64,000 nt of DNA from Erysipelotrichaceae bacterium (GTDB lineage Bacteria; Bacillota_I; Bacilli_A; RFN20; CAG-826): the NCBI GenBank assembly GCA_022777645.1, contig JALFFX010000055.1:2705-66704 (forward strand), written 5' to 3'. Below the pieces are notes generated by a model, which worked only from the letters and a program-made list of their open reading frames with translations, was not told the origin of the DNA and made no database searches. The number at the start of each line of letters is the position of its first letter. Position 1 is the stretch's first letter. Positions 341 to 64,000 of the stretch are shown in pieces. The position numbers and the translations under genes are program-made.

Positions 341-654
341 TGACACGCATTACTCCTGAACAAAGAGTCCAACAAGAAATTATTAGATGGCTCCATCCCT
401 ACTTATACGAGCAGGGGGGGCCTATTATTTTACATGTTCGTTCTGGCAACTCAGGTGAGCCCAAAGGTGCTGCTGACTTGTGGCTGTGCGTTAATGGAGC
501 TCATGTCGAAGTAGAAGTTAAGGCACCTAACGGCAAGCGTTCAACTGACCAAGAACGTTGGGAGCGCATTTGCAAGCAGACGGGGGCCTCATACTTAGTG
601 ACTGACAATCTACCCGAGTTCGTCGCGTTTATCACACCATTTCTTACAAAATAA
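340..654 (+). CDS. VRR-NUC domain nuclease
   Basis: motifs NSGEPKGAADLWL ... VEVEVKAPNGKRSTDQERW match the VRR-NUC (PD-(D/E)XK) pattern G.PDL / ExK / S..Q; the gene is a ~48% GC island in ~30% GC DNA. Confidence 0.65.
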   Translation: MTRITPEQRVQQEIIRWLHPYLYEQGGPIILHVRSGNSGEPKGAADLWLCVNGAHVEVEVKAPNGKRSTDQERWERICKQTGASYLVTDNLPEFVAFITPFLTK

Positions 655-1076: not shown

Positions 1077-1189
1077 GATAGTTTCACCTCACAGTTTGAT
1101 TATACACAAAATGCAAAAATATGTAAACAAAAAGGTTTTTCTCTATTTTGACTCACTTTTACTCTTTTCTAAAAATAAAGAAAAATACC

Positions 1190-1859
1190 AAAAATTATAA
1201 TAAAAAGGAAAAAGAAATAAAATTTTGAAAATTGAATTATTAAGAAATTAAGTTAGTTCTCAGTCTTATGTATATATGTGTGCATGTATATATGTATATT
1301 TTATTGTAAGTATTTATCTTTAAAAATAAAAAATTTTGTTTATAGGAAATAACTTAATTTCTTAATAATTTTAACTAAAATCTCTTCGTCTATATATAAT
1401 ATAATATCTCTCTTCGTCCTCTAGTAAGTTGATGTAGTAAGTTTTTAGTAAGTCCTTCTGTGCCTTTGTGTGAGTTATATATAAATATATAAATGTCTAG
1501 TAAGTTTTTGTCATTGTAAAATTTTCCCGACTTTCTCGCGTTAAAAATCAGTTTTTATCTTTAAGTGTAAAATTAAGTTTTTTCAACGTCCCAAAACTGA
1601 AACTTACTAGAGCAACTTACTAGAATTTTTTGTCATACATTTCGTCCTCACTCTACACTTTACTTGTCGTGAAGTGAATAGTCTCCAACGCACTCACATG
1701 CGCTCACTCACATGTGCTTACACATGAGCAATATTATTGCTAAAATACACGCTTATGCATGAGCAATATTATTGCTAAAACACATATATAACTTTATTTA
1801 AAGATAAAAGTATCACATAATACTAAAATATGATACAATAACAACAAGGAGAGATGATT
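1190..1859. promoter_or_regulatory. large non-coding region with iterons (TAGTAAGT x6 in both orientations), duplicated 24-nt palindrome-containing element, (TG/TA)n tract; candidate origin of replication / early promoter hub
   Basis: no credible ORF across ~670 bp; repeats at 1423-1457, 1497, 1604, 1617; CATGAGCAATATTATTGCTAAAA at ~1722 and ~1757; promoter-like TTAAAGATAA + TACAAT at 1796-1845. Confidence 0.45.
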
Positions 1860-1940
1860 ATGAGATTAACAAAAAGTAATGTTAAAAAATATTATTCAGA
1901 AAACAATGATGAATTGTTTGTTGAAGGAGTATCTTTGTGA
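1860..1940 (+). CDS. small ORF (26 aa)
   Basis: AAGGAGAGATGATT-ATG context identical to other genes; TGA overlaps ATG of next gene (TGATG). Confidence 0.3.
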   Translation: MRLTKSNVKKYYSENNDELFVEGVSL

Positions 1941-3847: not shown

Positions 3848-4306
3848 ATGAATTTGAAAATTAGTTATTTTAACAATATTAGAAATTTTAATAAATATGA
3901 TATACCATTATCTACAGCTATGTGGGACCCTAAATGGTATACTCAACATATAGATAAAAATGAAGTTATTAATGGATTAAAATGTTCACCATTGGTATTT
4001 TCTTATAAAGAATATTCTCAATTGAAAAATGAATGTCAAAGACATTGTCAGCAAGTTCCATTTCATTGTGAATTTATGAGAAAATATCGAGAACATCTTA
4101 ATAAAATAGATTTTGCTTCATTAATGATGTGGTTTGAGTCAGTTATAGAAAAAATTGCTGAATTAAATAATGATTTAAAAAATAAAGACAAATATCAAAT
4201 TGTTCTTATAGTTCATGAAAAACCTGAGATACATTGTGCTGAAAGACCAATTTTACAAGAATGGTTTAAAGATAATAATATTGTTTTAGAAGAATATTGT
4301 TTATAA
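3848..4306 (+). CDS. hypothetical protein
   Basis: 152-aa ORF. Confidence 0.55.
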   Translation: MNLKISYFNNIRNFNKYDIPLSTAMWDPKWYTQHIDKNEVINGLKCSPLVFSYKEYSQLKNECQRHCQQVPFHCEFMRKYREHLNKIDFASLMMWFESVIEKIAELNNDLKNKDKYQIVLIVHEKPEIHCAERPILQEWFKDNNIVLEEYCL

Positions 4307-20490: not shown

Positions 20491-20973
20491 ATGTGCGACG
20501 AAGATTTAGATTTAATTAATGATGAGTCTCATTTAGAAGACTTAGAAAATGAAAGATATAATCGACCATCTTGGCAACAAACATTTATTGATGTCGCCAA
20601 AGTTGTTTCAAAACGCAGCAAAGACCCTCATACAAAAGTAGGTTGTGTTCTTGTTAAAAATAATTGTATTGTTGCAACAGGTTATAATGGTGACCCAAGA
20701 GAATTCAGATATGAGTTTAATTGGAATACTGAAGAAAAATATAATTATGTTGTTCATGCAGAAATGAACACAATCGCAAATGCTGTATATAATGGAGCAG
20801 GAAATAATATTAAAGATGGTGAAGTCTATTTGACATTATCACCTTGTAGTAAATGCATTTTATTGCTCATTCAATTCGGCATTAAAAAAGTTTATTATCT
20901 TGAAGAATATAAAGATTTTGAACTTACAAAGAAAATTGCAGATAATGCAAACATTCGATTAATAAAAATATAG
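20491..20973 (+). CDS. dCMP deaminase
   Basis: zinc-binding signature HAE (VVHAEMNTI) and PCxxC (SPCSKC). Confidence 0.8.
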   Translation: MCDEDLDLINDESHLEDLENERYNRPSWQQTFIDVAKVVSKRSKDPHTKVGCVLVKNNCIVATGYNGDPREFRYEFNWNTEEKYNYVVHAEMNTIANAVYNGAGNNIKDGEVYLTLSPCSKCILLLIQFGIKKVYYLEEYKDFELTKKIADNANIRLIKI

Positions 20974-20984
20974 GAGAGATAATT

Positions 20985-21719
20985 ATGAGAATATTTGAAG
21001 GAAACACTATTGCTGAAGTATATGGTGATGCTGTAAAAAGTCTTTTAACTGCTGATGTAGTTGGAAGTACTAGAGAAATTAACAACTGTGTTCTTATAGT
21101 TCACAATCCAACATTAGAAAACATTTCATTTCCATATCGTAAACCTTTATCATTAAAATATTCAAATGCAGAATTAAGATGGTATTATTCAGCTGATAAT
21201 TCTTGTCACACAATTGGTCAACATGCTAAAATGTGGTTATCATTATCAGATGATGGTGAAACAAACAATTCTGCATATGGTTATATTTTATTTAAGAAAT
21301 ATGGATTTAATCAATTAGAACAAATTATTGAATTATTGAAGAAAGATACAACTACTCGTAGAGCTGTATTGAATATATCAGACCCATCAATTAATCGTAT
21401 TACTACAAAAGATATGCAATGCACAATTGCTCTTGATTTCTTAATTCGTAATGGTGAATTAGAAGAAACAGTTGTGATGCGTTCAAATGATGTGTTTTTC
21501 GGTTTTCCATATGATTATATATTCTTCGTTAGTTTAGGACAATATATTGCTAAAAGATTAGGACTTAAATTAGGTTTATATACACATCATGCAATATCAT
21601 TTCATATGTATTTAAGAGATGTTGATAATTTTAATTACCAAAATTCAACAACATTTACAATTGACGCAGAATCTATTATTAAGGAGTGTTATGAATATGA
21701 AAAGAATAACACCAATTAA
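20985..21719 (+). CDS. thymidylate synthase (ThyA)-family pyrimidine-nucleotide C5-transferase, divergent (candidate dCMP hydroxymethylase/methylase)
   Basis: aligns by eye to ThyA core: MQC (PCH, catalytic Cys retained), MRSNDVFFGFPYDY (QRSCDVFLGLPFNI, Asp at the N177-equivalent position), ISFHMY (GDTHLY). Confidence 0.6.
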   Translation: MRIFEGNTIAEVYGDAVKSLLTADVVGSTREINNCVLIVHNPTLENISFPYRKPLSLKYSNAELRWYYSADNSCHTIGQHAKMWLSLSDDGETNNSAYGYILFKKYGFNQLEQIIELLKKDTTTRRAVLNISDPSINRITTKDMQCTIALDFLIRNGELEETVVMRSNDVFFGFPYDYIFFVSLGQYIAKRLGLKLGLYTHHAISFHMYLRDVDNFNYQNSTTFTIDAESIIKECYEYEKNNTN

Positions 21720-21963
21720 AGTTAGATATTTAGCAAATGAAATTCATGATTTATTCAATATTTGTTTAGATAATGCATTAGCATTATTAAATGATGATGA
21801 ATTAGGAAGATGTTTTGATGATAATAATGAAATTGATATGAATTATATTGAAGTAAAAGTTATCAATCCAAATGCTACATTAAAGATATTATATGATGCA
21901 GCAACATTATTAGATAAAATGTCAAGTATTTATGATAAGGAGAGAACAGTAAATGAAAATTAA
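21691..21963 (+). CDS. hypothetical protein
   Basis: start reassigned to ATG 21691/21697 after AAGGAG; overlaps the end of the ThyA-like gene. Confidence 0.4.
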   Translation: MNMKRITPIKVRYLANEIHDLFNICLDNALALLNDDELGRCFDDNNEIDMNYIEVKVINPNATLKILYDAATLLDKMSSIYDKERTVNEN

Positions 21964-22366
21964 ATTATTTGATAAAAATGTAAAAATACCTACTAAGTCA
22001 CATTCTACTGACTGCGGATTAGATTTATATTTACCAGAAGGTTTTATCATTAAACCATTAGAAACTATATGTCTTGGACTTGGTATTGGTTTCTCAGTTC
22101 CAGAAGGAGCTGCAGGAATATTTGTTCCAAGAAGTAGTATTGCTAAAAAAGGTTTAGTAATTACACCTGCAATTACTGACTGTGGCTATAGTGGAGAAAC
22201 ACATTTGATTTTGACAAATTGTTCAAATAATACTTATACATTTAACAAAGATGATAGAGTTTGCTCATTTGTTTGTTTCAATATCATAAATCCACTTATC
22301 GAAATAGTTGATGAATTACCATCAAGTGAACGTGGTGACAAAGGTTTAGGTTCAACTGGTAATTAA
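21953..22366 (+). CDS. dut: dUTPase (trimeric dUTP diphosphatase family)
   Basis: all five dUTPase motifs are present: DCGLDL, PRSS, ITDCGYSGE, DRVCSF, ERGDKGLGSTG. Confidence 0.8.
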   Translation: MKIKLFDKNVKIPTKSHSTDCGLDLYLPEGFIIKPLETICLGLGIGFSVPEGAAGIFVPRSSIAKKGLVITPAITDCGYSGETHLILTNCSNNTYTFNKDDRVCSFVCFNIINPLIEIVDELPSSERGDKGLGSTGN

Positions 22367-55148: not shown

Positions 55149-56906
55149 TTACTCTTCTTCAGCTCCTCTAGCTACTTCTGTCGACTCAGTTCTTTCAACT
55201 GGCTCAACATTACTTGCTGGCTCAATTTCTTCGGCTGTATTATCTCCTTCTTCTCTGTTATCAACATTCTCTTCTATATCAGTGTTTGTCTCGACTCCTG
55301 AACTTTCTATACTCTCAGTCTCACTCACAAACGGATTATTTGAAAATGTTGGTCTATTAATCTTAGCAGTTGGATGTTTCTTGCCAATTACATCAATTGA
55401 GTCAAGTATAGTTTGTTCTTCTTCTAATTTAAGTACACCTAACATGTTATCATCTATATTGATGTCGATTGCATCATTGTTAATATAATTCTTAATCGAC
55501 ATAGCATATTGATATTTACTAATAATACCATTATTGACTAACTCATTCAACATAGTTGATAATTCTCTAATTGATGTGACTTTGTCCTTGTTCTCTTCGT
55601 CTTTAACGAGTGAGATGAAGTCAAAGTCAGGTGAACCTTTAACATCATATACGATGAACAAAATCTTTAAGAACTTATTGAGCACTGGTCTGAAGAACTC
55701 ATTGCATCTGTTCTTGATTGTTATTGCATATCTCTTTAATGCGTCAGTTTCTTGACTAAGTCCACCTTTAAGGTCACCATAAAGTATGCCTTGCATTTCT
55801 AATGCTGCACTTATCAACCACATATTTTTTTCCATTAAATCAGATAAGCCACTCAATCCACTCATTGTAAATTGATTATACTCGTCATCTTTATCAAGGA
55901 ATGTTAATGAATTATATGTTCTACCATAATTAACCATTGCAAGTCTTTGTTCAAGTTGTTTCATTGAACCTTTGTCCATACCCATGAAGATACTTCTCAT
56001 ACCTTTCATCTTAACAACTTCTATTAACGACTTGTTAACTAAACTTGTAATTGAACTTTTTAACTGGTCATCTCTAGCTAACTCATTCAATATATGTGCA
56101 CCTTCAGCATAACCCCAACCTTGCAAATAACCCATCTTCAATAATCTTGGCGCATTACGATGCTCATATCTTAAAACAAAACTGTGATGGACAGTCCAAG
56201 ACTTACCATTAGCAAATGTCACTTCATATGAGTAAGGTTTGCCATAATCTATGTCCTTCATGCTACTAACTGTTCTTGTAGATTGTGAACAACCATACCA
56301 TCTATCAGTAACATAAATCTTAAAACGTTTACCTTTAATCATTGCAGGACTTAATGGCTTTGCATAATCCTCAACCTTAAATCCTTCAAACATTATGACA
56401 CCAATTGCACCACCAAATAAAGCTCCCCACTTTAACAAATTGATAAGCTCTGATTTATACTTCTCATATGCTTTGTATATTTCTGTATAATCTTCATTAC
56501 CATGTAAAGTAAAGCCACAGTTAACCTCATCTTGTGCTGGCTTATCAATTGCTCTACGAAATACCCATGAATCATTATATATTGCTAACCATAATGTATA
56601 ATTGAGTGTATCATTGCTAAAGCCATAGTTTGTAAATGACTGTACTTTATCATTAGTGCCAATTGCTGCTAATGAATTGCCATAACTATCTTTGAGTGTT
56701 GTTGCTGCATGATTAACAGGCTTACTTTTTGCTGCAATGCTATCATATCTTTCTGCAGTATCTTCAATTGACTCTCTAAGTGTTGGAACTTGAGATGCAC
56801 GACTTGCTTCACCTATTGTTGAAGCAAATATACTTTGCACTTGTCCGAACTCAGAGTCTGAAAGACCTGTAGATAAATTAGTTGTTGTCTTAATACTTTT
56901 CTCCAT
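55149..56906 (-). CDS. portal protein candidate (alternative: a second sheath-like protein)
   Basis: 585 aa with a long acidic C-terminal tail; first large gene of the late transcription unit. Confidence 0.3.
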   Translation of the reverse strand: MEKSIKTTTNLSTGLSDSEFGQVQSIFASTIGEASRASQVPTLRESIEDTAERYDSIAAKSKPVNHAATTLKDSYGNSLAAIGTNDKVQSFTNYGFSNDTLNYTLWLAIYNDSWVFRRAIDKPAQDEVNCGFTLHGNEDYTEIYKAYEKYKSELINLLKWGALFGGAIGVIMFEGFKVEDYAKPLSPAMIKGKRFKIYVTDRWYGCSQSTRTVSSMKDIDYGKPYSYEVTFANGKSWTVHHSFVLRYEHRNAPRLLKMGYLQGWGYAEGAHILNELARDDQLKSSITSLVNKSLIEVVKMKGMRSIFMGMDKGSMKQLEQRLAMVNYGRTYNSLTFLDKDDEYNQFTMSGLSGLSDLMEKNMWLISAALEMQGILYGDLKGGLSQETDALKRYAITIKNRCNEFFRPVLNKFLKILFIVYDVKGSPDFDFISLVKDEENKDKVTSIRELSTMLNELVNNGIISKYQYAMSIKNYINNDAIDINIDDNMLGVLKLEEEQTILDSIDVIGKKHPTAKINRPTFSNNPFVSETESIESSGVETNTDIEENVDNREEGDNTAEEIEPASNVEPVERTESTEVARGAEEE

Positions 56907-56982
56907 GTTTTAATTATATAATCATTAAATCAAAATGTAAATTAAATAAAGAATGCTGACGATGTTTCACAATAATCAACTG

Positions 56983-57426
56983 TTAAAATACTCTTAAACT
57001 ATCAAAAGCTCTATCTTCTATGCAACCATAACACAACAATAACGATAATGCTTTTAACTGTGCATCAGTTAAACGTGTCACATTGTGTATATTGTTATAC
57101 CACACATAAATAATGCCTAACTCACTCATCATCTTATCATAACAATCTGCATCATGTCTAAAGTGCTCAACACAATATTCTCGTGTCCAACCTTTTAACT
57201 TACAATATTCTAATAAGCATTTTTCTGAGTGTGAAGGAATAGCATACTCAATTGTGCCATCAGGCCAGATTATCACTTCGCAATAATTGACAAACACTTG
57301 ACTATGCACCTTATAACTAAAAGGCATATAAAGATATTTGTTGCTCAAATGATGTGGTGACTTGCCATTGTTGCGATATTCAGCAATTTCAAGCAATTGT
57401 TGATGTTCAATACTATTGTCATGCAT
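56983..57426 (-). CDS. hypothetical Cys-rich protein
   Basis: 147-aa ORF. Confidence 0.5.
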   Translation of the reverse strand: MHDNSIEHQQLLEIAEYRNNGKSPHHLSNKYLYMPFSYKVHSQVFVNYCEVIIWPDGTIEYAIPSHSEKCLLEYCKLKGWTREYCVEHFRHDADCYDKMMSELGIIYVWYNNIHNVTRLTDAQLKALSLLLCYGCIEDRAFDSLRVF

Positions 57427-57616
57427 AATACTTAACTATCTCACCATCATTTGTTAATACTATAACACGAAATGCTTGTGTAAACCTTTGCACTATTTTT
57501 GCAACTTTTAGTGTATCACTTGTAGTTAATGCTTTCTTATACTTAGTTGTAATTGACATATATTTATCGACCCAATATTGACGTTTATCTCGACGATTAA
57601 TAACAACTATTTGCAT
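57419..57616 (-). CDS. hypothetical protein
   Basis: 65-aa ORF. Confidence 0.4.
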   Translation of the reverse strand: MQIVVINRRDKRQYWVDKYMSITTKYKKALTTSDTLKVAKIVQRFTQAFRVIVLTNDGEIVKYYA

Positions 57617-57618
57617 AA

Positions 57619-57807
57619 TTATCTTTCCTTATGCATTAAACTGCTTGCACTCTCATCCCAGTTAGATGAATGTTTGTTTTCAAACTTATTAGCATCTGCC
57701 CAAGCATCACTACTATTAGAATACCACTTTGTAGTGTATTGATGCCATTTTCCATCACCAGTATATGGTGATTCTAAATATCTAATTCTTACTGCCCACA
57801 CTCTCAT
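57619..57807 (-). CDS. hypothetical protein
   Basis: 62-aa ORF. Confidence 0.35.
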   Translation of the reverse strand: MRVWAVRIRYLESPYTGDGKWHQYTTKWYSNSSDAWADANKFENKHSSNWDESASSLMHKER

Positions 57808-58051
57808 ACATTCTTCTTATTTGCCTAAGTATTTGTCTACCAGCGTGCTTATCACTTGGCGTATTGCTAACAACCATCATGCCAACAGGCATTACGATTT
57901 TCGAATGATTACTACCTTTGTTTACAATGAAGCCGACATTCTCTAACCTTTGTATGACATGCACACTTAAACCTTTATAATCAATAAATATGTCTATGAG
58001 TTCGCACCATATCTTATTTAATTCATTTGATGTAGTAGCTAATCTGCACAT
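57782..58051 (-). CDS. HicA/YcfA-like protein (candidate mRNA-interferase toxin fold)
   Basis: KGSNHSKIVMPVG....SNTPSDKHAGRQILRQI parallels HicA GSNH...P.H....ILKQ; RBS AAAAGGAG. Confidence 0.4.
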   Translation of the reverse strand: MCRLATTSNELNKIWCELIDIFIDYKGLSVHVIQRLENVGFIVNKGSNHSKIVMPVGMMVVSNTPSDKHAGRQILRQIRRMYESVGSKN

Positions 58052-58308
58052 TCATTGATACTCCTTTTAAGTTCTTCCAATTGTTTTTTCTTACTTTCAA
58101 TATCATATTCGATACTTATTGCTTCGAAGATGTTATCAGCTTTACCTAACACTGCTTCATAAACATCTAACATATCTTCTAAGTATTGAGTGTCTGCTTC
58201 TCTATTTTGATATTGATACTCAAATTCAGCATCCCATTCATAATTCATAAACCTGAGCAACCAAGTTTGTTGGTCTTCAGTCATTTCAATCTTAACTTTA
58301 TTTTTCAT
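58039..58308 (-). CDS. hypothetical acidic protein
   Basis: start reassigned to MKNKVK (GAGGAG RBS). Confidence 0.45.
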   Translation of the reverse strand: MKNKVKIEMTEDQQTWLLRFMNYEWDAEFEYQYQNREADTQYLEDMLDVYEAVLGKADNIFEAISIEYDIESKKKQLEELKRSINECAD

Positions 58309-58504
58309 ATGACTCCTCGCTTGTGCCATCAGCATAGTAGATGTTAATGCGTTGCCAACCATTGTGTTGTAATGTTCGTGTACAAGCACATTCTTTATCT
58401 ATACTAATAATGACATTTTCACCATTTGCATTTTTGCCTACAAGTGGCTCTTCAATATAACCATACTTTTGTAATAGTTCATTGTACATATATCTATCCT
58501 CCAC
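58298..58504 (-). CDS. hypothetical protein
   Basis: 68-aa ORF. Confidence 0.4.
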   Translation of the reverse strand: MEDRYMYNELLQKYGYIEEPLVGKNANGENVIISIDKECACTRTLQHNGWQRINIYYADGTSEESYEK

Positions 58505-58555
58505 ATTATTATTGTATCACATTCATGGTTAAAGATACGTATTTATCTTTAATGA

Positions 58556-58987
58556 CTATTTATCACTTCCTACTTTAAACCAATACTTGTGCATTGTGAC
58601 TTTACTTGCATCCCAAATATCTCTAACTTTACCGTCAACAATACAGCTGAGATGATGTGTGCCTGCAACAATTACAAATGTGCCTTTTGTGATTTGTTCT
58701 TCTATCATCCACTCTTTAACTGTCATCTTACGATTGTTAACATCTCTTGGCTCTTTGCATCTGATGAAACCATGTGTCTCTAAGTATTTCTCATATACAT
58801 GCCAGTCAATGAGAACAAAACCTTTTTTAATTCCAACTTCAGTGAGTTCACGTACTGTTTGTTCCCAGCTTTGTCCAGTTGCTAGAGCGATCGCTCTAAT
58901 AACACAATCACCGCCATATTTATCTTTTGGATTCACATTAGTATATTCATAGAAATCTGTGTTTTGAAACCTAAGCTCTTTTTTCAT
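58556..58987 (-). CDS. putative papain-fold (CHAP/NlpC-like) Cys-His peptidase
   Basis: GGDCVIRAIALA ... VAGTHHLSCIVDG spacing resembles Cys...His catalytic dyads. Confidence 0.3.
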   Translation of the reverse strand: MKKELRFQNTDFYEYTNVNPKDKYGGDCVIRAIALATGQSWEQTVRELTEVGIKKGFVLIDWHVYEKYLETHGFIRCKEPRDVNNRKMTVKEWMIEEQITKGTFVIVAGTHHLSCIVDGKVRDIWDASKVTMHKYWFKVGSDK

Positions 58988-59166
58988 TAATCATCAATCT
59001 CCTTCACATTATTATTGTATAATAAAAGAGTGCATAAGCACTCAGTTATCTTTAATAATAAATAATGGTCTTTTTTTTTTTATATTTCCCCAATATATTA
59101 TACTACATTTTGACTTAAATCTAACTAGTTATCTTTAAAATCATATGTAGTTAATTATTATTTAAA
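58988..59166 (-). promoter_or_regulatory. ~85-bp promoter cassette (palindromic AAAGATA-N6-TATCTTT, extended -10 TGGTATAAT-like, T11 tract)
   Basis: same unit recurs at 60016-60262 and 61768-61860. Confidence 0.5.
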
Positions 59167-59682
59167 TTAATGAATTTTGAAAACTTGATTTGCATCTGCT
59201 TTCATTATATCTCTAGTATGTTTATCAAGATTTGTTATTTCATCAATATTTTTATCTGGAAAATAAGAACATTCTTCACCTAATGCTGCTTGCACATATA
59301 CTGAAAATGGAAATGTCAGCATATGTTTAGAAACATTATTATCAATTAAATTTTTGGTAATCCATCTATCAGCCAAATATCCTTCATCAAAACTTTCAGG
59401 CCAATCATGATTAATATGATATACTTCAACATTTGAAAAATCTGATGCAATTTTTTCAACAGGTATTTGTAAATATAATGCTAAACATTTTCTAATATCT
59501 TCATTTGAATGAAAACAATCATAAAAATATTCATTTTCTAAAAAACCTTTTTTAATTCCTTCATAATTTTTATTACTGTCAAATTCATCAATATTATTGA
59601 TTGCTGGTTCCCATTTTAAGTTAATAGTATCTTTAAATTTTCTAATACTATCAATGATTTTCTTTTTTTCATTTTTATTCAT
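59167..59682 (-). CDS. hypothetical protein
   Basis: start set at MNKNEKK (AAATGGAG RBS). Confidence 0.5.
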   Translation of the reverse strand: MNKNEKKKIIDSIRKFKDTINLKWEPAINNIDEFDSNKNYEGIKKGFLENEYFYDCFHSNEDIRKCLALYLQIPVEKIASDFSNVEVYHINHDWPESFDEGYLADRWITKNLIDNNVSKHMLTFPFSVYVQAALGEECSYFPDKNIDEITNLDKHTRDIMKADANQVFKIH

Positions 59683-59728
59683 ATTAATTACTCCATTTCT
59701 ATATATATAATATAACATCAATATTGTT

Positions 59729-59956
59729 TTATAAAATTATTTTTTTTTCATTTTCAATTTCTTCAAACTCACTTATAAGAAATTTTCTAAAATCTTCATC
59801 TAAAAGTATATCTTCATCAGAACATCTTCTAATATTTTTAAATTCACAATATATATCAACGATGTCTTGATGTTTTTCTTTTAACATGAGTTGAATATAT
59901 TGTAGCATTTGTAATTCTTTATGTGAGAGTGTTTGTGTAGTAAATTTCAATTTCAT
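59729..59956 (-). CDS. hypothetical protein
   Basis: 75-aa ORF. Confidence 0.45.
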   Translation of the reverse strand: MKLKFTTQTLSHKELQMLQYIQLMLKEKHQDIVDIYCEFKNIRRCSDEDILLDEDFRKFLISEFEEIENEKKIIL

Positions 59957-60284
59957 TTTACATCATTCCTTATTTGCATTTATATTATACTATAAAACAA
60001 TACAAATCTAACTAGTTATCTTTAAGTAAAATAATACTCTTTTTTTTTTTTTATATATTTCCCCAGTATATTATACCACATTTTTACTTAAAGATACATA
60101 ATTATCTTTAAGTAAAATTCTTTTTTTTTTTAATATTCTCCAAATATATTATACCATATTTTTACTTAAATGTAATCAGTTATCTTTAATGATAAATAAT
60201 GGATTTTTTTTTATATATTTCCCTAGTATATTATACTATATTTTTACTTAAAAGTAATTAGTTATCTTTAATGATAAATAATCC
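59957..60284 (-). repeat. tandem array (~3.3 copies) of the ~80-87-bp promoter cassette
   Basis: unit boundaries at TTATCTTTA occurrences 60015, 60101, 60180, 60262; each unit contains a T9-T13 run and TATATT(T)CCCCAGTATATTATAC. Confidence 0.65.
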
Positions 60285-60545
60285 ATTCCAGTCTTCGTCT
60301 GCGTATGATTCAAATGTATCATGTTCAACAAGAAACTCTGCTGTTGAGATGATGACTTGAGCATACATGTTATCATGTGAATATTCAGCTGCTGGAGTTT
60401 CGCTGCCATCGGCTTCCAATGTTGCAGCATCGTAGCAATAATCTAAGAAGTCATCATCATAGTGTCCGTGTAAGTATGAATATTCAATGATGATATTATA
60501 ATAAGTTTTGAGAGTGCATGTCTCAAGATTAAGTTCATATCTCAT
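60258..60545 (-). CDS. hypothetical acidic protein
   Basis: 95-aa ORF. Confidence 0.5.
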   Translation of the reverse strand: MRYELNLETCTLKTYYNIIIEYSYLHGHYDDDFLDYCYDAATLEADGSETPAAEYSHDNMYAQVIISTAEFLVEHDTFESYADEDWNGLFIIKDN

Positions 60546-60547
60546 AA

Positions 60548-60799
60548 TCAGTCCTCATCATCGACGCCGAAGTATCTGTTTTCAAGTTCGTTAACTAAGA
60601 GTTCAGTATAAGCTTTTTCATCTTCTTCTCCGAAACAATTATCTAAGCCAACTCCCAACACAGCTAATAAAACTTCCTTTAATTGATAATTGCTCATATC
60701 TGTGTAATTGTCAGCAATGAAGTCATATAACACGCCTGCGCCTTCTGATGTCGCTTTCACTAATTCCTTTTCTAAGTTTTTCATCAATATTTCCTCCAT
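60548..60799 (-). CDS. hypothetical acidic protein
   Basis: 83-aa ORF; conserved leader TATAAT-ATATATGTAAAGGATGGAGG upstream. Confidence 0.5.
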   Translation of the reverse strand: MEEILMKNLEKELVKATSEGAGVLYDFIADNYTDMSNYQLKEVLLAVLGVGLDNCFGEEDEKAYTELLVNELENRYFGVDDED

Positions 60800-60850
60800 C
60801 CTTTACATATATATTATACTATAAGTTGAAGTAAAGATATATACTTATCT
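60800..60850 (-). promoter_or_regulatory. promoter + conserved 5' leader (AAAGATA...TATCTTT, TATAGTATAAT, AAGGATGGAGG RBS)
   Basis: leader identical in four genes. Confidence 0.5.
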
Positions 60851-61180
60851 TTACTTAACAACTTCAATTAACTCAAGTCCTAAACGTTTATCCCAGTAGT
60901 GAGCTGCATTGACAACAGTTGATGGCACTTTTCTATGTGAGTATAATCCTGCGTCATGTGTTTCTTTTTCTGAGTAATGTTCAATGAATGATTGTTCTAA
61001 ATCTTTGTATGATTCATCAGATTCAAAATCTTCCATACATTGCTCCCACGTTTCTCCATCAGGCCAGATGTAGAGCCAATCTGAGTAATAAGCTTCTTCA
61101 TCATTCATGTATATCATGATTTGTCCAAGCAACCAAGCCTTTTCACCATTATCTAATTTTAACCATTCTTCGTGTGTCAT
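60851..61180 (-). CDS. hypothetical protein
   Basis: 109-aa ORF with conserved leader. Confidence 0.5.
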   Translation of the reverse strand: MTHEEWLKLDNGEKAWLLGQIMIYMNDEEAYYSDWLYIWPDGETWEQCMEDFESDESYKDLEQSFIEHYSEKETHDAGLYSHRKVPSTVVNAAHYWDKRLGLELIEVVK

Positions 61181-61247
61181 TGAGATGTTCCTCCATCCTT
61201 TACATATATATTATATAATATTTATAAGTAAAGATATATACTTATCT
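61181..61247 (-). promoter_or_regulatory. promoter + conserved leader
   Basis: TAAAGATAAGTATATATCTTTACTTATAAATATTATATAATATATATGTAAAGGATGGAGG on the minus strand. Confidence 0.5.
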
Positions 61248-61712
61248 TTACTTAATACCATACCATAAAATATTACCACGATCTTTCAAACAATCATAAG
61301 CTTTATAAGCATCTTGTGCAGTAATTCCATCATGCATATAAGCACTTTCAACTTTGCACTTTCTTGACCATTCTAAGCCTTCTGTATAATCGTCTTTAAT
61401 TTCTTGTTTGATGATTTGTTTCACCTTATTTGCAAACCATTCTTTGATTTGTTGTTCATCCATATTACAGAACTTATTGCAGCGTGGTCTGTTAAAGTCC
61501 ACATCACCCCAAGCTTTACTAATATATATGACAACATCATCACCTTCGAGGTCACAGCATTCAAATAACCAATAACCTCTCATTGCAAATGAGTTTTCCC
61601 ACATGCCATCACTAAGTTGACCTTCAACACTTTGAATTATTGATAACATTTTTGTTCCCTTTAAGCCGGTGTGTATTTTTCTACAATTTGCTTTAATTTT
61701 TTCTGACCACAT
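61248..61712 (-). CDS. hypothetical protein
   Basis: 154-aa ORF. Confidence 0.5.
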   Translation of the reverse strand: MWSEKIKANCRKIHTGLKGTKMLSIIQSVEGQLSDGMWENSFAMRGYWLFECCDLEGDDVVIYISKAWGDVDFNRPRCNKFCNMDEQQIKEWFANKVKQIIKQEIKDDYTEGLEWSRKCKVESAYMHDGITAQDAYKAYDCLKDRGNILWYGIK

Positions 61713-61887
61713 TTTATGTATCCTCCATCCTTTACATATATATTATAATATTTTTTATCTTAAAGATATATGATTATCTTTAAGTAAAATAATGGTCTTT
61801 TTTTTTTTTTTTTTTTTAACAATTCCCCATTATATTATACCATATTTTTTCTCAAAGATACATAATTATCTTTAGGAGAAGAGAATA
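61713..61887 (-). promoter_or_regulatory. double promoter cassette with ~20-nt poly-T (poly-A on the transcribed strand)
   Basis: two AAAGATA-N6-TATCTTT elements each followed by TATAAT; T-run 61798-61817. Confidence 0.5.
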
Positions 61888-62256
61888 TCACCCGAGTTGG
61901 ATGATATTCTCAAGATGTTTAGCGAAGAAATCTGTGATGTTATAATTTTTATTATTTGCCTCATATTCACCTTTCTCAATTTCTTCACCTTGAGCATTGA
62001 AGTAAGTGACGTGTGTGATTTGTTTATTATTTTTAGTTATACGAGCAACAACATAATCATCACCTTGCTTATTAGTTTTTACTTCGATGTTTGTAAACCT
62101 TACAACACCTTTGGAAACTTTACGTCCATTATTAGTAATAGTCTCCCACATCATTGAAATATATGTGCCTTTTTTATATGTGGCCATAATACTTTCGAAC
62201 TCTTTTCTTGTCATAACATTTGTTCCTCCATCCTTGACATATATATTGTATAACAT
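61888..62256 (-). CDS. hypothetical protein
   Basis: 122-aa ORF with conserved leader. Confidence 0.5.
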   Translation of the reverse strand: MLYNIYVKDGGTNVMTRKEFESIMATYKKGTYISMMWETITNNGRKVSKGVVRFTNIEVKTNKQGDDYVVARITKNNKQITHVTYFNAQGEEIEKGEYEANNKNYNITDFFAKHLENIIQLG

Positions 62257-62506
62257 ATATGCTTAAAAGTAATTAGTTATCTTTAAATACAAATATTCAC
62301 TTATTTAAAGATAACAATGTACATATTAAGAATTTAGAGTTATTATATTTATGAACAAAAATTGTGATGTGTATTGACATTACGCTCCTTTGTGACTGGT
62401 AGTTATATCTCGCCAATATAACTACTTTTTTTATTGCTTAAAGATAACTAATTACATTTGAAAAATAACGTTATATAATAATAATGTCAATGATGGAGGA
62501 ACATAA
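62257..62506. promoter_or_regulatory. divergent promoter region at the -/+ strand switch, with several copies of the TAAAGATAAC element in both orientations
   Basis: 62270 AGTTATCTTTA (-), 62306 TTTAAAGATAACAATGTACAT (+), 62445 TTAAAGATAACTAATTACATTT (+), TATATAAT + GATGGAGGAACAT RBS. Confidence 0.5.
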
Positions 62507-62821
62507 ATGACAAACTTAAATGAAAATACAAAAGCAGCTCAATCAATGATTAGCCGCTACATCAATACTACTAAAGGTAGTAGTATTTATAATGCATATT
62601 GCAAACCTTCAGCAGCAAAAGTTGAGGCGTGCAATAAGATTAAAAAGGAAATGAATGAGGTAGGGGGGTATGGCTTCCGTATCACAAAAGCAGGGTCTAG
62701 CTTCTTTAGCTGTGCTTATCTTGTCAATCATATTGCTGATGGTGAAACTAAAGCAACTAAATATTTAATTTATCATACAGTGAATAATGTATATCGTATA
62801 AAATACGATGCTCAAAGATAA
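62507..62821 (+). CDS. hypothetical protein
   Basis: 104-aa ORF, GATGGAGGAACATAA-ATG; contains a G6 tract. Confidence 0.55.
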   Translation: MTNLNENTKAAQSMISRYINTTKGSSIYNAYCKPSAAKVEACNKIKKEMNEVGGYGFRITKAGSSFFSCAYLVNHIADGETKATKYLIYHTVNNVYRIKYDAQR

Positions 62822-62881
62822 ACAAGTCGTTAAACTTAAAAATATGATACAATATATTTGTCAATGAGGAGGAATGATTGG

Positions 62882-63691
62882 ATGGAACAAATTGACAACT
62901 TAATTGAATTAAAAAACAAACGTGAAATTGCATTTGAAGCATTTGAAGCAAATGAAAAAATTGTCATTGATGAACTGACAAAAATATTAAATGAAAAATG
63001 CTGTCCTGAAGGAGTCGAATTAGTAGTCGACTTAAAAATGCAAGTATGTCGCAGATATGATGAACAATATGGTCAATATTATTTCAATGGTGATATAGGC
63101 TTCAAGACAGATGATGAGGAGCGTCTTGCAAAAGGATGGAAAACAGACTTTGGCTCAGACTTTGATATTCGCATTTATCAAAATGGGGGTATTGAGATTA
63201 ACAAAGGAACGTGCGGCTCATATCGTCGTCAAGATAAGTTTCAAGTCGCTAGAGATTTATGCTTAGCTAAGATTTGGGAAAATGAAGAAGCATTGGTCAA
63301 TTGTATGAATTATCATTTCAAATATGACCTTTATAAGACACTTAAAGATATTGATAACAAAATTATACAAATTGAACAACAACAAAGATGTGATAATGCT
63401 TTAAAGGCATTAGGGGGGGCGGTTTATCTCTACACAGAAAATGTCTACAATAAATATGAATATGTCGGCGATAAATATGAAATTGCTAAAGCACACAGTC
63501 CAAGTGATATTTTCAAAATTGAAAAAATTACAGATAAAAATGTGCTTGGATACTATGTTGATTTTCCGTGGAAAAAGAAACGTCTTGACCGTAATATAAT
63601 TATGACCAAAATTATGAATAATTATTTAAAGACATCTGTTGAATTACCAACTGCATTCATAGTATCAAATGACGAGGAGGCGGGTAAATAA
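62882..63691 (+). CDS. hypothetical protein
   Basis: start set at MEQIDN (GAGGAGG RBS); G7 tract inside, C10 tract just after the stop. Confidence 0.55.
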   Translation: MEQIDNLIELKNKREIAFEAFEANEKIVIDELTKILNEKCCPEGVELVVDLKMQVCRRYDEQYGQYYFNGDIGFKTDDEERLAKGWKTDFGSDFDIRIYQNGGIEINKGTCGSYRRQDKFQVARDLCLAKIWENEEALVNCMNYHFKYDLYKTLKDIDNKIIQIEQQQRCDNALKALGGAVYLYTENVYNKYEYVGDKYEIAKAHSPSDIFKIEKITDKNVLGYYVDFPWKKKRLDRNIIMTKIMNNYLKTSVELPTAFIVSNDEEAGK

Positions 63692-63702
63692 CTACCCCCC
63701 CC

Positions 63703-63780
63703 CTCCTTTCTTAAAGATAACTAATTACATTTAAACATATTTGTGATACAATATAATTGTAAAATGGAAGGAAGATAATT
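63703..63780 (+). promoter_or_regulatory. promoter with TTAAAGATAACTAATTACATTT element
   Basis: near-identical to 62445-62466; followed by TACAAT and GGAAGGAAGATAATT-ATG. Confidence 0.5.
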
Positions 63781-64000
63781 ATGATTTACACACCAGATGA
63801 TATGAGGGAAATTATCAGTGACAATGTTGCTGATTTACAAATTGAAAGATTAAGTGATAATTTTCAATCATTAATGGACTACATTGATTTAGATACATTA
63901 GTTGCTTGGTTCGTAGAATGTATGTGCGAAAACGATCCTCATTACTACATGGAAAATGAAAATGATGCAGATGCAGTTTGTGATTGGTATCAAAAACACT
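63781..64000 (+). CDS. hypothetical protein, N-terminal fragment (continues beyond window)
   Basis: ATG 63781 with strong RBS; open to the window end. Confidence 0.5.
   Translation, partial: MIYTPDDMREIISDNVADLQIERLSDNFQSLMDYIDLDTLVAWFVECMCENDPHYYMENENDADAVCDWYQKH

What the first reader, a model, noticed from the sequence alone, without database searches (positions are those of the whole stretch)
58988..61887. ~85-bp promoter cassettes, a 3.3-copy tandem array, and hypervariable poly-T tracts up to ~20 nt
An ~85-bp unit occurs at 59044-59150, 61768-61860 and as 3.3 tandem copies at 60016-60284. On the transcribed strand it reads TTATGTATCTTTAAGTAAAAATGTGGTATAATATACTGGGGAAATATA-A(n)-…TTAAAGATAA. 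It contains an extended -10 (TGGTATAAT) and a second AAAGATA element. The A/T homopolymers are 11, ~13, 10, 9 and ~20 nt long (59071-59081, 60040-60052, 60121-60131, 60205-60213, 61798-61817). A tandem triple promoter before two tiny genes (59729..59956, 59167..59682) is unusual. It could be a very strong early promoter block, a sponge for a host or phage DNA-binding protein, or a recombination hotspot. Tracts this long slip during replication and would vary between isolates.
Basis: seen in the sequence. Interest (0 to 1): 0.55.

Follow-up and report, generated by a model that had tools for sequence, protein, structure and literature searches.

The report
Gene-less copies of a phage promoter cassette
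The repeats are five gene-less copies of the promoter cassette that an uncultured low-GC phage places in front of its early and replication genes, apparently spread by recombination between cassettes, with poly-A runs that differ between samples; this is a variant of a known phage genome pattern, not a new kind of system.

Summary
There is a 3.3-copy tandem array with an 82-bp period at 60013-60283, single copies at about 59056-59138 and 61784-61875, and pure T runs of 11, 13, 11, 9 and 20.

The unit is not a special element. It is a subtype of a promoter cassette with about 25 copies: TTAAAGATAA, 5 nt, a -35 zone (often the palindromic partner TATCTTTAA), 11 nt, then TATAAT. The copies always point with the genes, and 15 of the 24 copies tabulated run into a Shine-Dalgarno sequence and a start codon.

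Five copies have no gene. After the -10 box comes a G-start leader, then A(9-20), about 14 nt, then the next promoter.

Independent assemblies reproduce the 3+1 array. They also show tract polymorphism: A20, A13 or at least 24; A11 or A12; A11 or A10.

Related phages have different genes exactly where the gene-less copies sit. A strain-level mosaic breakpoint falls inside a cassette. The two genes bracketed by gene-less copies are compositionally foreign (GC3 9-12% against mostly 25-37%).

Best reading: these are PeSL-like mobile regulatory cassettes that are still active promoters, stacked four deep in front of an acquired two-gene module. Promoter activity, the role of the poly-A run and the factor that binds TTAAAGATAA are all inferred or unknown. 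Interest is moderate to low.

The parts
61784..61875 (-). Gene-less promoter cassette E. Upstream element CTAAAGATAA at 61866-61875, palindromic partner TATCTTTGA, extended -10 TGGTATAAT with the hexamer at 61834-61839, leader ATAATGGGGAATTGTT, A20 (T20 on the + strand, 61798-61817), tail GACCATTATTTTAC.
   Evidence: The tract is A13 in L039 and at least 24 at the ends of the Logan contigs. L043 has a promoter plus a 172-aa gene at this position.
61742..61783 (-). Gene-linked promoter of the 154-aa gene (61248-61712). TTAAAGATAA-TCATA-TATCTTTAAG, -10 at 61742-61747, then the conserved 5' UTR ATATATGTAAAGGATGGAGG and ATG.
60190..60271 (-). Tandem array unit 1 (no gene). TTAAAGATAA at 60262-60271 overlaps the last codons of the 95-aa gene. 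-10 at 60230-60235, leader ATACTAGGGAAATATAT, A9 (60204-60212), tail TCCATTATTTATCA.
   Evidence: L037 reads CTGGGG here.
60112..60189 (-). Tandem array unit 2 (no gene). -35 ATTACA, extended -10 TGGTATAAT (hexamer 60148-60153), leader ATATTTGGAGAATATT, A11 (60121-60131).
   Evidence: A12 in L045.
60026..60111 (-). Tandem array unit 3 (no gene). Perfect palindrome TTTTACTTAAAGATA-N6-TATCTTTAAGTAAAA, extended -10 (hexamer 60070-60075), leader ATACTGGGGAAATATAT, A13 (60040-60052).
59984..60025 (-). Gene-linked promoter, the fourth in the stack. TTAAAGATAA at 60016-60025, -10 at 59984-59989, then AAGGAATGATGTAAAATG, the start of the 75-aa gene.
59167..59956 (-). Two-gene cargo fed by the stack: a 75-aa gene (59729-59956; 72 aa in other assemblies) and a 171-aa gene (59167-59682). 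Both are ORFans with foreign composition: GC 21.5-23.6%, GC3 9-12%.
   Evidence: A9 versus A8 at 59740-59748.
59056..59138 (-). Gene-less promoter cassette A, immediately downstream of the cargo. TTAAAGATAA at 59129-59138, -10 at 59097-59102, leader ATATTGGGGAAATAT, A11 (59071-59081), tail GACCATTATTTATTA.
   Evidence: A10 in L046.
59014..59055 (-). Promoter/terminator cassette of the 143-aa gene. TTAAAGATAA at 59046-59055. The GC-rich hairpin GAGTGCTTATGCACTC plus TTTTATT (59028-59043) sits where the -35 zone would be. -10 TACAAT at 59014-59019.
   Evidence: This is the only canonical terminator in 58400-62600.
60813..60854 (-). Gene-linked family member (type I: palindrome GTAAAGATAAGTATATATCTTTAC plus the conserved 5' UTR). 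Shown for comparison. Near-identical copies lie at 61210-61251 and 62245-62286.
   Evidence: (family D1, 81-91% identity).
62812..62853 (+). Family member on the + strand. Homology with strain L038 ends within its -10 box, at 62848.

Best explanation
The ~82-bp units are gene-less copies of the phage's own early and replication-gene promoter cassette.

The cassette is: the upstream element TTAAAGATAA at about -48 to -39; 5 nt; a -35 zone that is often the palindromic partner TATCTTTAA; 11 nt; and TATAAT, often with an extended -10. About 25 copies lie in the window. Each points the same way as its genes, and 15 of the 24 tabulated run into a Shine-Dalgarno sequence and a start codon.

Five copies belong to a subtype whose transcript would begin with GGGG and contain an A run. 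These five are followed by another promoter instead of a gene.

I infer four things.
(1) They are still recognised by the host's primary-sigma RNA polymerase. With no terminator between them, they read through into the next promoter and gene. The 60026-60271 block plus the gene-linked promoter is therefore a four-deep promoter stack, spaced 78-86 bp, about one polymerase footprint. It feeds a horizontally acquired two-gene module.
(2) They were created and moved by homologous recombination between cassette copies, as described for PeSL cassettes of T4-type phages. That process inserts, deletes and swaps genes at cassette boundaries and can leave empty or duplicated cassettes.
(3) The A runs are part of the transcribed leader, not coding sequence.
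(4) The runs expand and contract by replication slippage.

Shown: the sequence family, geometry, orientation, pattern of conservation, strain polymorphism, mosaic breakpoints and composition anomaly. Inferred: promoter activity, the polymerase used, read-through, and recombination as the cause.
For: Family and geometry. 22 aligned copies keep a fixed 26-nt distance from TTAAAGATAA to the -10 box. Information peaks at the upstream element and the -10 box. 27 matrix hits exceed all shuffles, and all follow gene orientation apart from palindrome echoes. In a table of 24 copies, 15 are followed by a Shine-Dalgarno sequence and a start codon.

The gene-less units are intact. All five keep a perfect TATAAT and four of five keep a perfect TTAAAGATAA, although the units are only 76-88% identical overall. 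Their differences cluster in the spacer, the -35 zone and the tail.

There is no terminator between the stacked units.

The same cassette family occurs in relatives L040, L043, L053 and L054.

In L043 the same GGGGAAT-A9 leader sits directly before a 61-aa gene, and an A10 run sits directly before a Shine-Dalgarno sequence.

Synteny. L043 has a promoter plus a 172-aa gene where the window has gene-less unit 61875. After the homologue of the 95-aa gene, the window, L043 and L040 each carry different genes.

The window-versus-L038 breakpoint lies in cassette 62812.

The cargo at 59167-59956 has GC3 of 9-12% against 25-37% in all but one of the other genes tabulated, and it is bracketed by gene-less units on both sides.

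Units in different places are more alike (61875 and 60111, 88%; 60271 and 59138, 88%) than neighbours within the array (81-83%). This points to exchange between sites.

Tract lengths differ between assemblies.

PeSL precedent: PMC2839356 and PMC4122927.
Against: No transcription data exist, so every promoter call is sequence-based.

A generic sigma-70 consensus scan is not enriched in this AT-rich region (35 found against 32.9 expected). The case rests on the family-specific motif.

The -35 hexamers are weak.

Recombination does not explain why all five units, and two L043 leaders, keep an uninterrupted A run of at least 9 at the same position. That suggests a function I cannot name.

Tandem gene-less units were seen only in this phage lineage. 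That fits recent accidents as well as it fits function. Short-read assemblies also break at such repeats, so their absence in relatives is weakly established.

The window's own tract lengths may contain homopolymer errors. Its coding A9 is A8 in three other assemblies.
Confidence: 0.55

Rival explanations
1. Neutral scars. The gene-less units are leftovers of gene deletions or unequal crossovers between cassettes. They have no selected role, and any residual promoter activity is incidental.
For: They are lineage-specific. No same-strand promoter pairs closer than 160 bp occur in L040, L043, L053 or L054. They sit exactly at sites where relatives gain or lose genes. The tail of unit 1, CCATTATTTATCA, duplicates the 3' end of the upstream 95-aa gene, GGATTATTTATCA.
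Against: The core elements (TTAAAGATAA, TATAAT, the G-start leader and a pure A run) are intact in all five units despite 12-24% overall divergence. The five are the best matches to the family consensus.
Confidence: 0.2
2. Tract-length rheostat. Slippage in the A/T run changes the helical phasing between neighbouring promoters or upstream elements and so tunes transcription, as the promoter-proximal T-tract does at Helicobacter pylori sabA.
For: Tract lengths do vary between samples. The run ends at a fairly fixed 14-15 nt (9 nt in one unit) upstream of the next TTAAAGATAA. Precedent: PMC4081817.
Against: The run lies outside the segment between the next promoter's upstream element and its core. 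A change in length therefore does not alter that promoter's internal geometry, only its distance from the promoter upstream. At sabA the tract lies between the UP-like elements and the core promoter.
Confidence: 0.1
3. Operator array or sponge. The TTAAAGATA-N6-TATCTTTAA palindromes are sites for a dimeric host or phage regulator. The gene-less units add extra sites that titrate it or bind it cooperatively.
For: The upstream element carries far more information than a generic AT-rich UP element. Eight of 22 copies have a clear palindromic partner. Five upstream elements lie within about 340 bp in the array.
Against: Pfam found no HTH or sigma protein in 30 window proteins. Most copies have only one good half-site. 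The half-site centres are about 15 bp apart, which is unusual for a dimer binding one face of the helix. The element sits at a fixed distance from the -10 box, as a promoter element would.
Confidence: 0.1
4. Transcription-primed origin or R-loop element. [quoted passage not shown]
For: The architecture matches the minimal T4 origins described in PMC3016281. The leader plus A run is unstructured as RNA.
Against: Five copies at three sites is odd for an origin. The units are lineage-specific. A better origin candidate exists at about 1100-1860: a 750-bp non-coding region with iterons next to the replication module. In L043 the same leader simply precedes genes.
Confidence: 0.07
5. Each unit encodes a small RNA or a micro-peptide.
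For: A transcript from unit 59138 would end at the terminator at 59028-59043, giving an RNA of about 70 nt. Some units have short frames such as TTG/CTG-GGG-AAA-TAT-(AAA)n (read from the sequence).
Against: Only one of the five units has a terminator. The would-be start codons differ (TTG, CTG, CTA, TTT, ATG) and the frames differ. There is no Rfam match and no fold beyond the palindromes.
Confidence: 0.04
6. Assembly artefact.
For: Short-read contigs often break at the units (L037, L038, L039, L046). Many homologous contigs are shorter than 1.5 kb.
Against: L036 and L045 span the whole array with the same unit order. The units differ by 12-24%, so k-mer assemblers can resolve them.
Confidence: 0.02

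Closest known systems
PeSL (promoter-early stem-loop) mobile regulatory cassettes of T4-type phages (Arbiol et al. 2010, PMC2839356; Comeau et al. 2014, PMC4122927)
   Same: A repeated intergenic cassette of about 70-100 bp. It has a strong host-type promoter, an AT-rich upstream part, a stem-loop-capable sequence that can overlap the -35 or lie between -35 and -10, and then a Shine-Dalgarno sequence and a start codon. It is concentrated in a variable region of small ORFan genes. Gene gains, losses and replacements between relatives coincide with the cassettes.
   Different: The phage is unrelated: an uncultured 28% GC clade whose portal is at most 27% identical to that of any cultured phage. 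The stem-loops are AT-rich palindromes with no U-run, so they are probably not terminators. Only one copy, at 59028-59043, has a GC-rich terminator hairpin. The highly specific TTAAAGATAA element has no PeSL counterpart. Gene-less tandem copies and long poly-A leaders do not appear in the PeSL abstracts and sections I read. Mini-circles were not testable.
Tandem strong early promoters of lytic phages, such as T7 A1/A2/A3 (from memory, not checked here)
   Same: Several host-polymerase promoters in the same orientation, stacked upstream of early genes.
   Different: Here the stack is one site among about 25 dispersed copies. Its spacing is one polymerase footprint (78-86 bp). Its position relative to the genome end is unknown, and its strength has not been measured.
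[quoted passage not shown]
   Same: About 100 bp made of a promoter followed by an easily unwound A/T-rich stretch, needing no gene.
   Different: There are multiple copies. There is no evidence of R-loops or replication initiation. The same leader precedes ordinary genes in relative L043.
Promoter-proximal T/A-tract rheostats of Helicobacter pylori, such as sabA (PMC4081817)
   Same: An intergenic homopolymer near a promoter whose length varies by slipped-strand mispairing.
   Different: The run lies downstream of one promoter's start site and upstream of the next promoter's upstream element, not between an UP-like element and its core promoter. Any effect on output is untested.

Membership tests
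PeSL-type mobile regulatory cassette | A conserved intergenic motif of about 100 bp repeated many times in one genome | tested here: met
   About 25 copies. Family D1 has 11 copies of 68 nt. 27 weight-matrix hits exceed all shuffles.
PeSL-type mobile regulatory cassette | Contains a host sigma-70-type early promoter with an AT-rich upstream region | tested here: inconclusive
   The TATAAT and extended -10 are excellent and the upstream TTAAAGATAA is conserved, but the -35 is weak. A generic scan is not enriched. There are no transcription data.
PeSL-type mobile regulatory cassette | Contains a stem-loop that acts as a terminator or attenuator | tested here: inconclusive
   Three of the AT-rich palindromes were folded and give -11.5 to -14.4 kcal/mol, but they have no U-run on the sense strand. 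Only 59028-59043 fits a terminator pattern.
PeSL-type mobile regulatory cassette | Ends in a Shine-Dalgarno sequence and the start codon of the downstream gene | tested here: met
   Met for 15 of the 24 copies tabulated. Not met, by definition, for the five gene-less copies that are the subject of this finding.
PeSL-type mobile regulatory cassette | Lies in variable regions next to ORFans, with gene gains, losses and replacements between relatives coinciding with cassettes | tested here: met
   Synteny with L043 and L040. L038 breakpoint at 62848 inside a cassette. ORFan cargo with foreign GC.
PeSL-type mobile regulatory cassette | Occurs in T4-like myoviruses; formation of encapsidated mini-circles | tested here: not met
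   The phage is not T4-like: its portal belongs to family PF06381 and is at most 27% identical to that of any cultured phage. Mini-circles cannot be tested with these tools. I therefore say it works like PeSLs, not that it is a member by descent.
Transcription-primed origin (T4 oriF/oriG type) | [quoted passage not shown] | tested here: met
   A promoter followed by a leader and A(9-20). This is architecture only.
Transcription-primed origin (T4 oriF/oriG type) | A persistent R-loop and replication initiation at the site | not testable with these tools
   Needs R-loop footprinting or origin mapping.
Simple-sequence contingency locus or rheostat | A homopolymer whose length varies within or between populations | tested here: met
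   A20, A13 or at least 24; A11 or A12; A11 or A10.
Simple-sequence contingency locus or rheostat | The tract lies inside a promoter (spacer, or between UP element and core) or inside a reading frame, so that its length changes expression | tested here: not met
   The five cassette tracts lie at about +9 to +30 of one promoter and upstream of -62 of the next, outside both promoter cores. A separate coding A9/A8 run at 59740-59748 does change the C-terminus of the 75-aa protein.

The most novel reading that the evidence does not exclude
The gene-less units are dedicated functional elements, not by-products. A strong promoter would fire into a GGGG cluster and a pure polypurine A run kept at +9 to +30. 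There it would either form an R-loop that primes replication or recombination (as at T4 oriF/oriG), or hold polymerase in a slippage-prone paused state for a regulator. Slippage in the tract would tune the element between strains. The strict purity of the A run across diverged copies and across phages is the observation that keeps this reading open.
Probability: 0.08. Interest if true: 0.7.

Novelty: new variant of a known kind. Interest (0 to 1): 0.33.

Why it matters
If correct, cassette-mediated modular shuffling, so far described for T4-type phages of Gram-negative bacteria, also shapes an unrelated, uncultured low-GC phage clade. Here it uses a different and very specific promoter module, TTAAAGATAA-N26-TATAAT.

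The finding gives a ready promoter model for annotating early and replication genes in this clade. It explains why short-read assemblies of these phages fragment: the contigs break at the cassettes and at the long A run. It also marks a site where foreign genes are captured and immediately placed under strong expression.

The conserved pure A run and the unknown factor that recognises TTAAAGATAA are small open questions that can be tested. None of this is surprising enough to rank high.

Tried and rejected
- Close relatives in GenBank phages: megablast of 58900-62300 found none. tblastn of the portal gave at most 27% identity.
- IMG/VR and JGI metagenomes searched with the gene-less-unit pattern and the general cassette pattern: no true relatives. 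One IMG/VR relative, L001, lacks the motif.
- GTDB genomes searched with the portal: nothing, so no host clue.
- Rfam on 57000-64000: nothing relevant. No tRNA genes.
- RNA folding of the unit transcripts: only the palindromes fold.
- Antisense-terminator idea (palindrome plus T run on the + strand): fits only one unit, 60082-60131, and was rejected as a general feature.
- Micro-ORF idea: start codons and frames are inconsistent; rejected.
- I first assumed that a Sigma70_r4 gene followed the window's end. This was wrong. That gene belongs to strain variant L038, which is mosaic with the window.
- Search for a regulator: Pfam and PHROGs on the 10 neighbouring proteins, and Pfam on 20 further window proteins, gave no HTH or sigma hit.
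- Function of the cargo: the 171-aa protein is an ORFan in 5.8 billion and 1.8 billion protein searches. The single-sequence AlphaFold model is unusable (pLDDT 37), so no fold search was run.
- Copy-number variation: the L037/L046 break in SRR14369134 fits either a SNP in unit 1 or a recombinant of units 1 and 3. It could not be resolved without reads.
- DNA curvature profile: not computed. Long pure A runs are poorly handled by wedge models, and I did not want to rely on parameters recalled from memory.


Full report
CONTEXT. The window is most of an uncultured tailed-phage genome with 28% GC. It carries a replication module on the + strand (helicase, primase, DNA polymerase) and structural genes on the - strand (large terminase, sheath, major head protein, protease, portal). 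A block of small genes of unknown function occupies 57000-62290 on the - strand. This block diverges at about 62300 from + strand early genes. No GenBank phage is close.

TRF reports an array at 60013-60283 with period 82, 3.3 copies and 80% matches. Dispersed copies lie at about 59056-59138 and 61784-61875. The pure T runs on the + strand are 11 (59071-59081), 13 (60040-60052), 11 (60121-60131), 9 (60204-60212) and 20 (61798-61817). The raw number of A/T runs is not unusual for this composition. Their placement is: five of the window's eight runs of at least 9 sit at the same position in the five units.

WHAT THE UNIT IS. Read on the minus strand, the strand of the genes, each unit begins with TTAAAGATAA. 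After 5 nt comes a 10-nt -35 zone, which is either the palindromic partner TATCTTTAAG or TTACATTTAAG-like. After 11 more nt comes TATAAT, preceded by TGG in three of the five units.

The same architecture, with the same fixed 26-nt distance, precedes genes all over the early and replication regions on both strands. On the + strand: 4266, 6731, 8726, 8922, 11440, 14679, 17463, 62438, 62812 and 63711. On the - strand: 58552, 59055, 60025, 60854, 61251, 61783 and 62286. Most of these run into a strong Shine-Dalgarno sequence and a start codon (15 of the 24 copies tabulated). The copies at 4266, 6731 and 8726 showed none within the stretch scanned.

A weight matrix built from 22 copies gives 27 hits above the best of 20 shuffles. 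All follow gene orientation except reverse echoes of the palindromes.

Relatives with 66-74% portal identity (L043, L040) and two more clade members (L053, L054) use the same module. Three more distant ones (L047, L052, L001) do not. L049 gives only weak matrix hits of 17-26 bits.

WHAT IS SPECIAL ABOUT FIVE COPIES. Units 61875, 60271, 60189, 60111 and 59138 have no gene. After the -10 box comes ATAYTGGGGAAATATA. This is probably the start of the transcript, with the G cluster falling 6-8 nt after the -10 box. Then come A(9-20), then about 14 nt (GACCATTATTTTAC or similar), then the TTAAAGATAA of the next promoter.

There is no terminator between the units. The only canonical terminator in 58400-62600 is the hairpin at 59028-59043, which sits inside the next cassette between its upstream element and its -10 box.

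Gene 59729-59956 is therefore preceded by four promoters spaced 82, 78 and 86 bp apart. This spacing is roughly one polymerase footprint, a figure I take from general knowledge.

The five units are the best-scoring members of the family (45-51 bits). They keep TATAAT, the upstream element, the G-start leader and a pure A run intact, although they are only 76-88% identical overall. That argues that they are live promoters rather than decaying remnants. It is still an inference.

INDEPENDENT ASSEMBLIES. Logan contigs L036 (SRR14369274) and L045 (SRR14369156) span the array with the same unit order, so the copy number is not an artefact of one assembly.

Tract lengths differ between assemblies.
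- Long run: A20 in the window, A13 in ENA contig L039, and at least 24 at the ends of three Logan contigs, where the first 31-mer is A24 plus GACCATT.
- Array unit 2: A11 in the window and L036, A12 in L045.
- Unit 59138: A11 in the window, L036 and L045, and A10 in L046.

A coding A9 at 59740-59748 is A8 in three contigs, which shortens the 75-aa protein to 72 aa. Either this run also slips, or the window carries homopolymer errors. The exact lengths in the window should therefore be read with caution.

Short-read contigs often end at the units (L037, L038, L039, L046). Many contigs that carry homologues of the 154-aa gene are shorter than 1.5 kb. This is as expected for a dispersed repeat.

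EVIDENCE FOR CASSETTE-MEDIATED SHUFFLING.

(i) Strain L038 is 97.5% identical to the window from 61857 to 62848, and the homology stops inside cassette 62812, at its -10 box. Beyond that point L038 carries a sigma-70-family gene where the window has an unrelated 277-aa gene.

(ii) L043 is syntenic with the window. However, it has a promoter plus a 172-aa gene exactly where the window has gene-less unit 61875. After the homologue of the 95-aa gene, the window, L043 and L040 each carry different genes.

(iii) The two genes fed by the array, 59729-59956 and 59167-59682, have GC of 21.5-23.6% and GC3 of 9-12%. The other genes tabulated have GC of 29-37%, and GC3 of 25-37% in all but one. These two genes are ORFans, and they are bracketed by gene-less units upstream (the array) and downstream (59138).

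(iv) Units at different sites are closer to each other (88%) than neighbours within the array (81-83%).

(v) The tail of unit 1 repeats the last 13 nt of the upstream 95-aa gene with one mismatch.

Together these match the PeSL picture described for T4-type phages. There, repeated promoter plus stem-loop cassettes in variable regions act as portable homology for insertion, deletion and replacement of ORFans (PMC2839356, PMC4122927). I say the window works like PeSLs. It is not a member by descent, because the phage is unrelated, most of the stem-loops are AT-rich palindromes without U-runs, and the TTAAAGATAA element is specific to this clade.

WHAT REMAINS UNEXPLAINED.

The A run. All five copies keep an uninterrupted run of at least 9. 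L043 has A9 and A10 runs at the homologous leader position, but there they sit directly in front of a gene or a Shine-Dalgarno sequence. The run therefore belongs to a leader subtype that predates the gene-less copies, and it may have a function. Candidate roles are an A-rich initial transcribed sequence that favours promoter escape, a translational enhancer, a far-upstream A-tract for the next promoter, an R-loop or unwinding element, or a pause site. None of these can be tested here.

The factor that recognises TTAAAGATAA. It could be the alpha C-terminal domain of RNA polymerase or a specific protein. Pfam found no HTH or sigma protein in 30 window proteins.

RIVAL EXPLANATIONS. They are ranked in the rivals section:
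- neutral scars (0.2);
- rheostat (0.1; precedent PMC4081817, but the run is outside the promoter cores);
- operator array or sponge (0.1);
- T4 oriF/oriG-like origin (0.07; the architecture matches PMC3016281, but there are five copies, the units are lineage-specific, and a better origin candidate lies at 1100-1860);
- small RNA or peptide (0.04);
- artefact (0.02).

VERDICT. This is a new variant of a known kind of phage genome feature. Interest is about 0.33.

Noticed in passing
window 59167-59956 (-): The 75-aa and 171-aa genes downstream of the array have GC3 of 9-12% against 25-37% for all but one of the other genes tabulated. The 171-aa protein has no homologue in two very large protein searches. 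This looks like recently acquired foreign cargo.
   Followed up: partly
window 59740-59748: A coding homopolymer is A9 in the window and A8 in three Logan contigs. This changes the C-terminus of the 75-aa protein and gives a 72-aa product. Either the run really slips or the window has a homopolymer error.
   Followed up: partly
window 62812-62853 (+) versus L038: Strain L038 (ENA ERZ28564292) loses homology with the window at 62848, inside a promoter cassette. From there it carries a sigma-70-family gene (region 2 in a 195-aa ORF, region 4 in a 75-aa ORF, possibly frameshifted) in place of the window's 277-aa gene.
   Followed up: partly
window 62305-62432 (+): A weaker cassette copy (-10 box TATTAT) is followed by an ORF-free, structured stretch of about 85 nt that ends in an 11-bp stem plus U7 (-19.8 kcal/mol, z = -3.4). 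This is a candidate small RNA in the divergent control region, and the sequence is conserved in strains L038 and L039.
   Followed up: partly
window ~56904-56925 (-): The portal gene appears to start only 6 nt after a TATAAT box (TATAAT-TAAAAC-ATG), with no Shine-Dalgarno sequence. The late mRNA may be leaderless.
   Followed up: no
window 1100-1860: A non-coding AT-rich region of about 750 bp contains TAGTAAGTT-type short repeats and a 35-bp tandem repeat (1716-1784). It lies immediately upstream of the replication module and is a plausible origin of replication.
   Followed up: no
window 414-420, 653-670, 63413-63419, 63695-63703: G7, A9+G7, G7 and C9 homopolymers in a 28% GC genome. The C9 run lies directly upstream of promoter 63711.
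   Followed up: no
window 20491-22366 (+): dCMP deaminase, a thymidylate-synthase-family protein and dUTPase lie side by side. This could be ordinary nucleotide metabolism or a modified-base pathway.
   Followed up: no
window 61888-62256 and 60548-60799 (-): The longest ORFs overrun their own -10 boxes. The likely true starts are 62214 (108 aa) and 60784 (78 aa), which agrees with the gene calls in related contigs.
   Followed up: yes
L043 6686-6785: A 100-N scaffold gap lies in relative L043 at the spot syntenic with the window's tandem array. An unassembled repeat may be hidden there.
   Followed up: no
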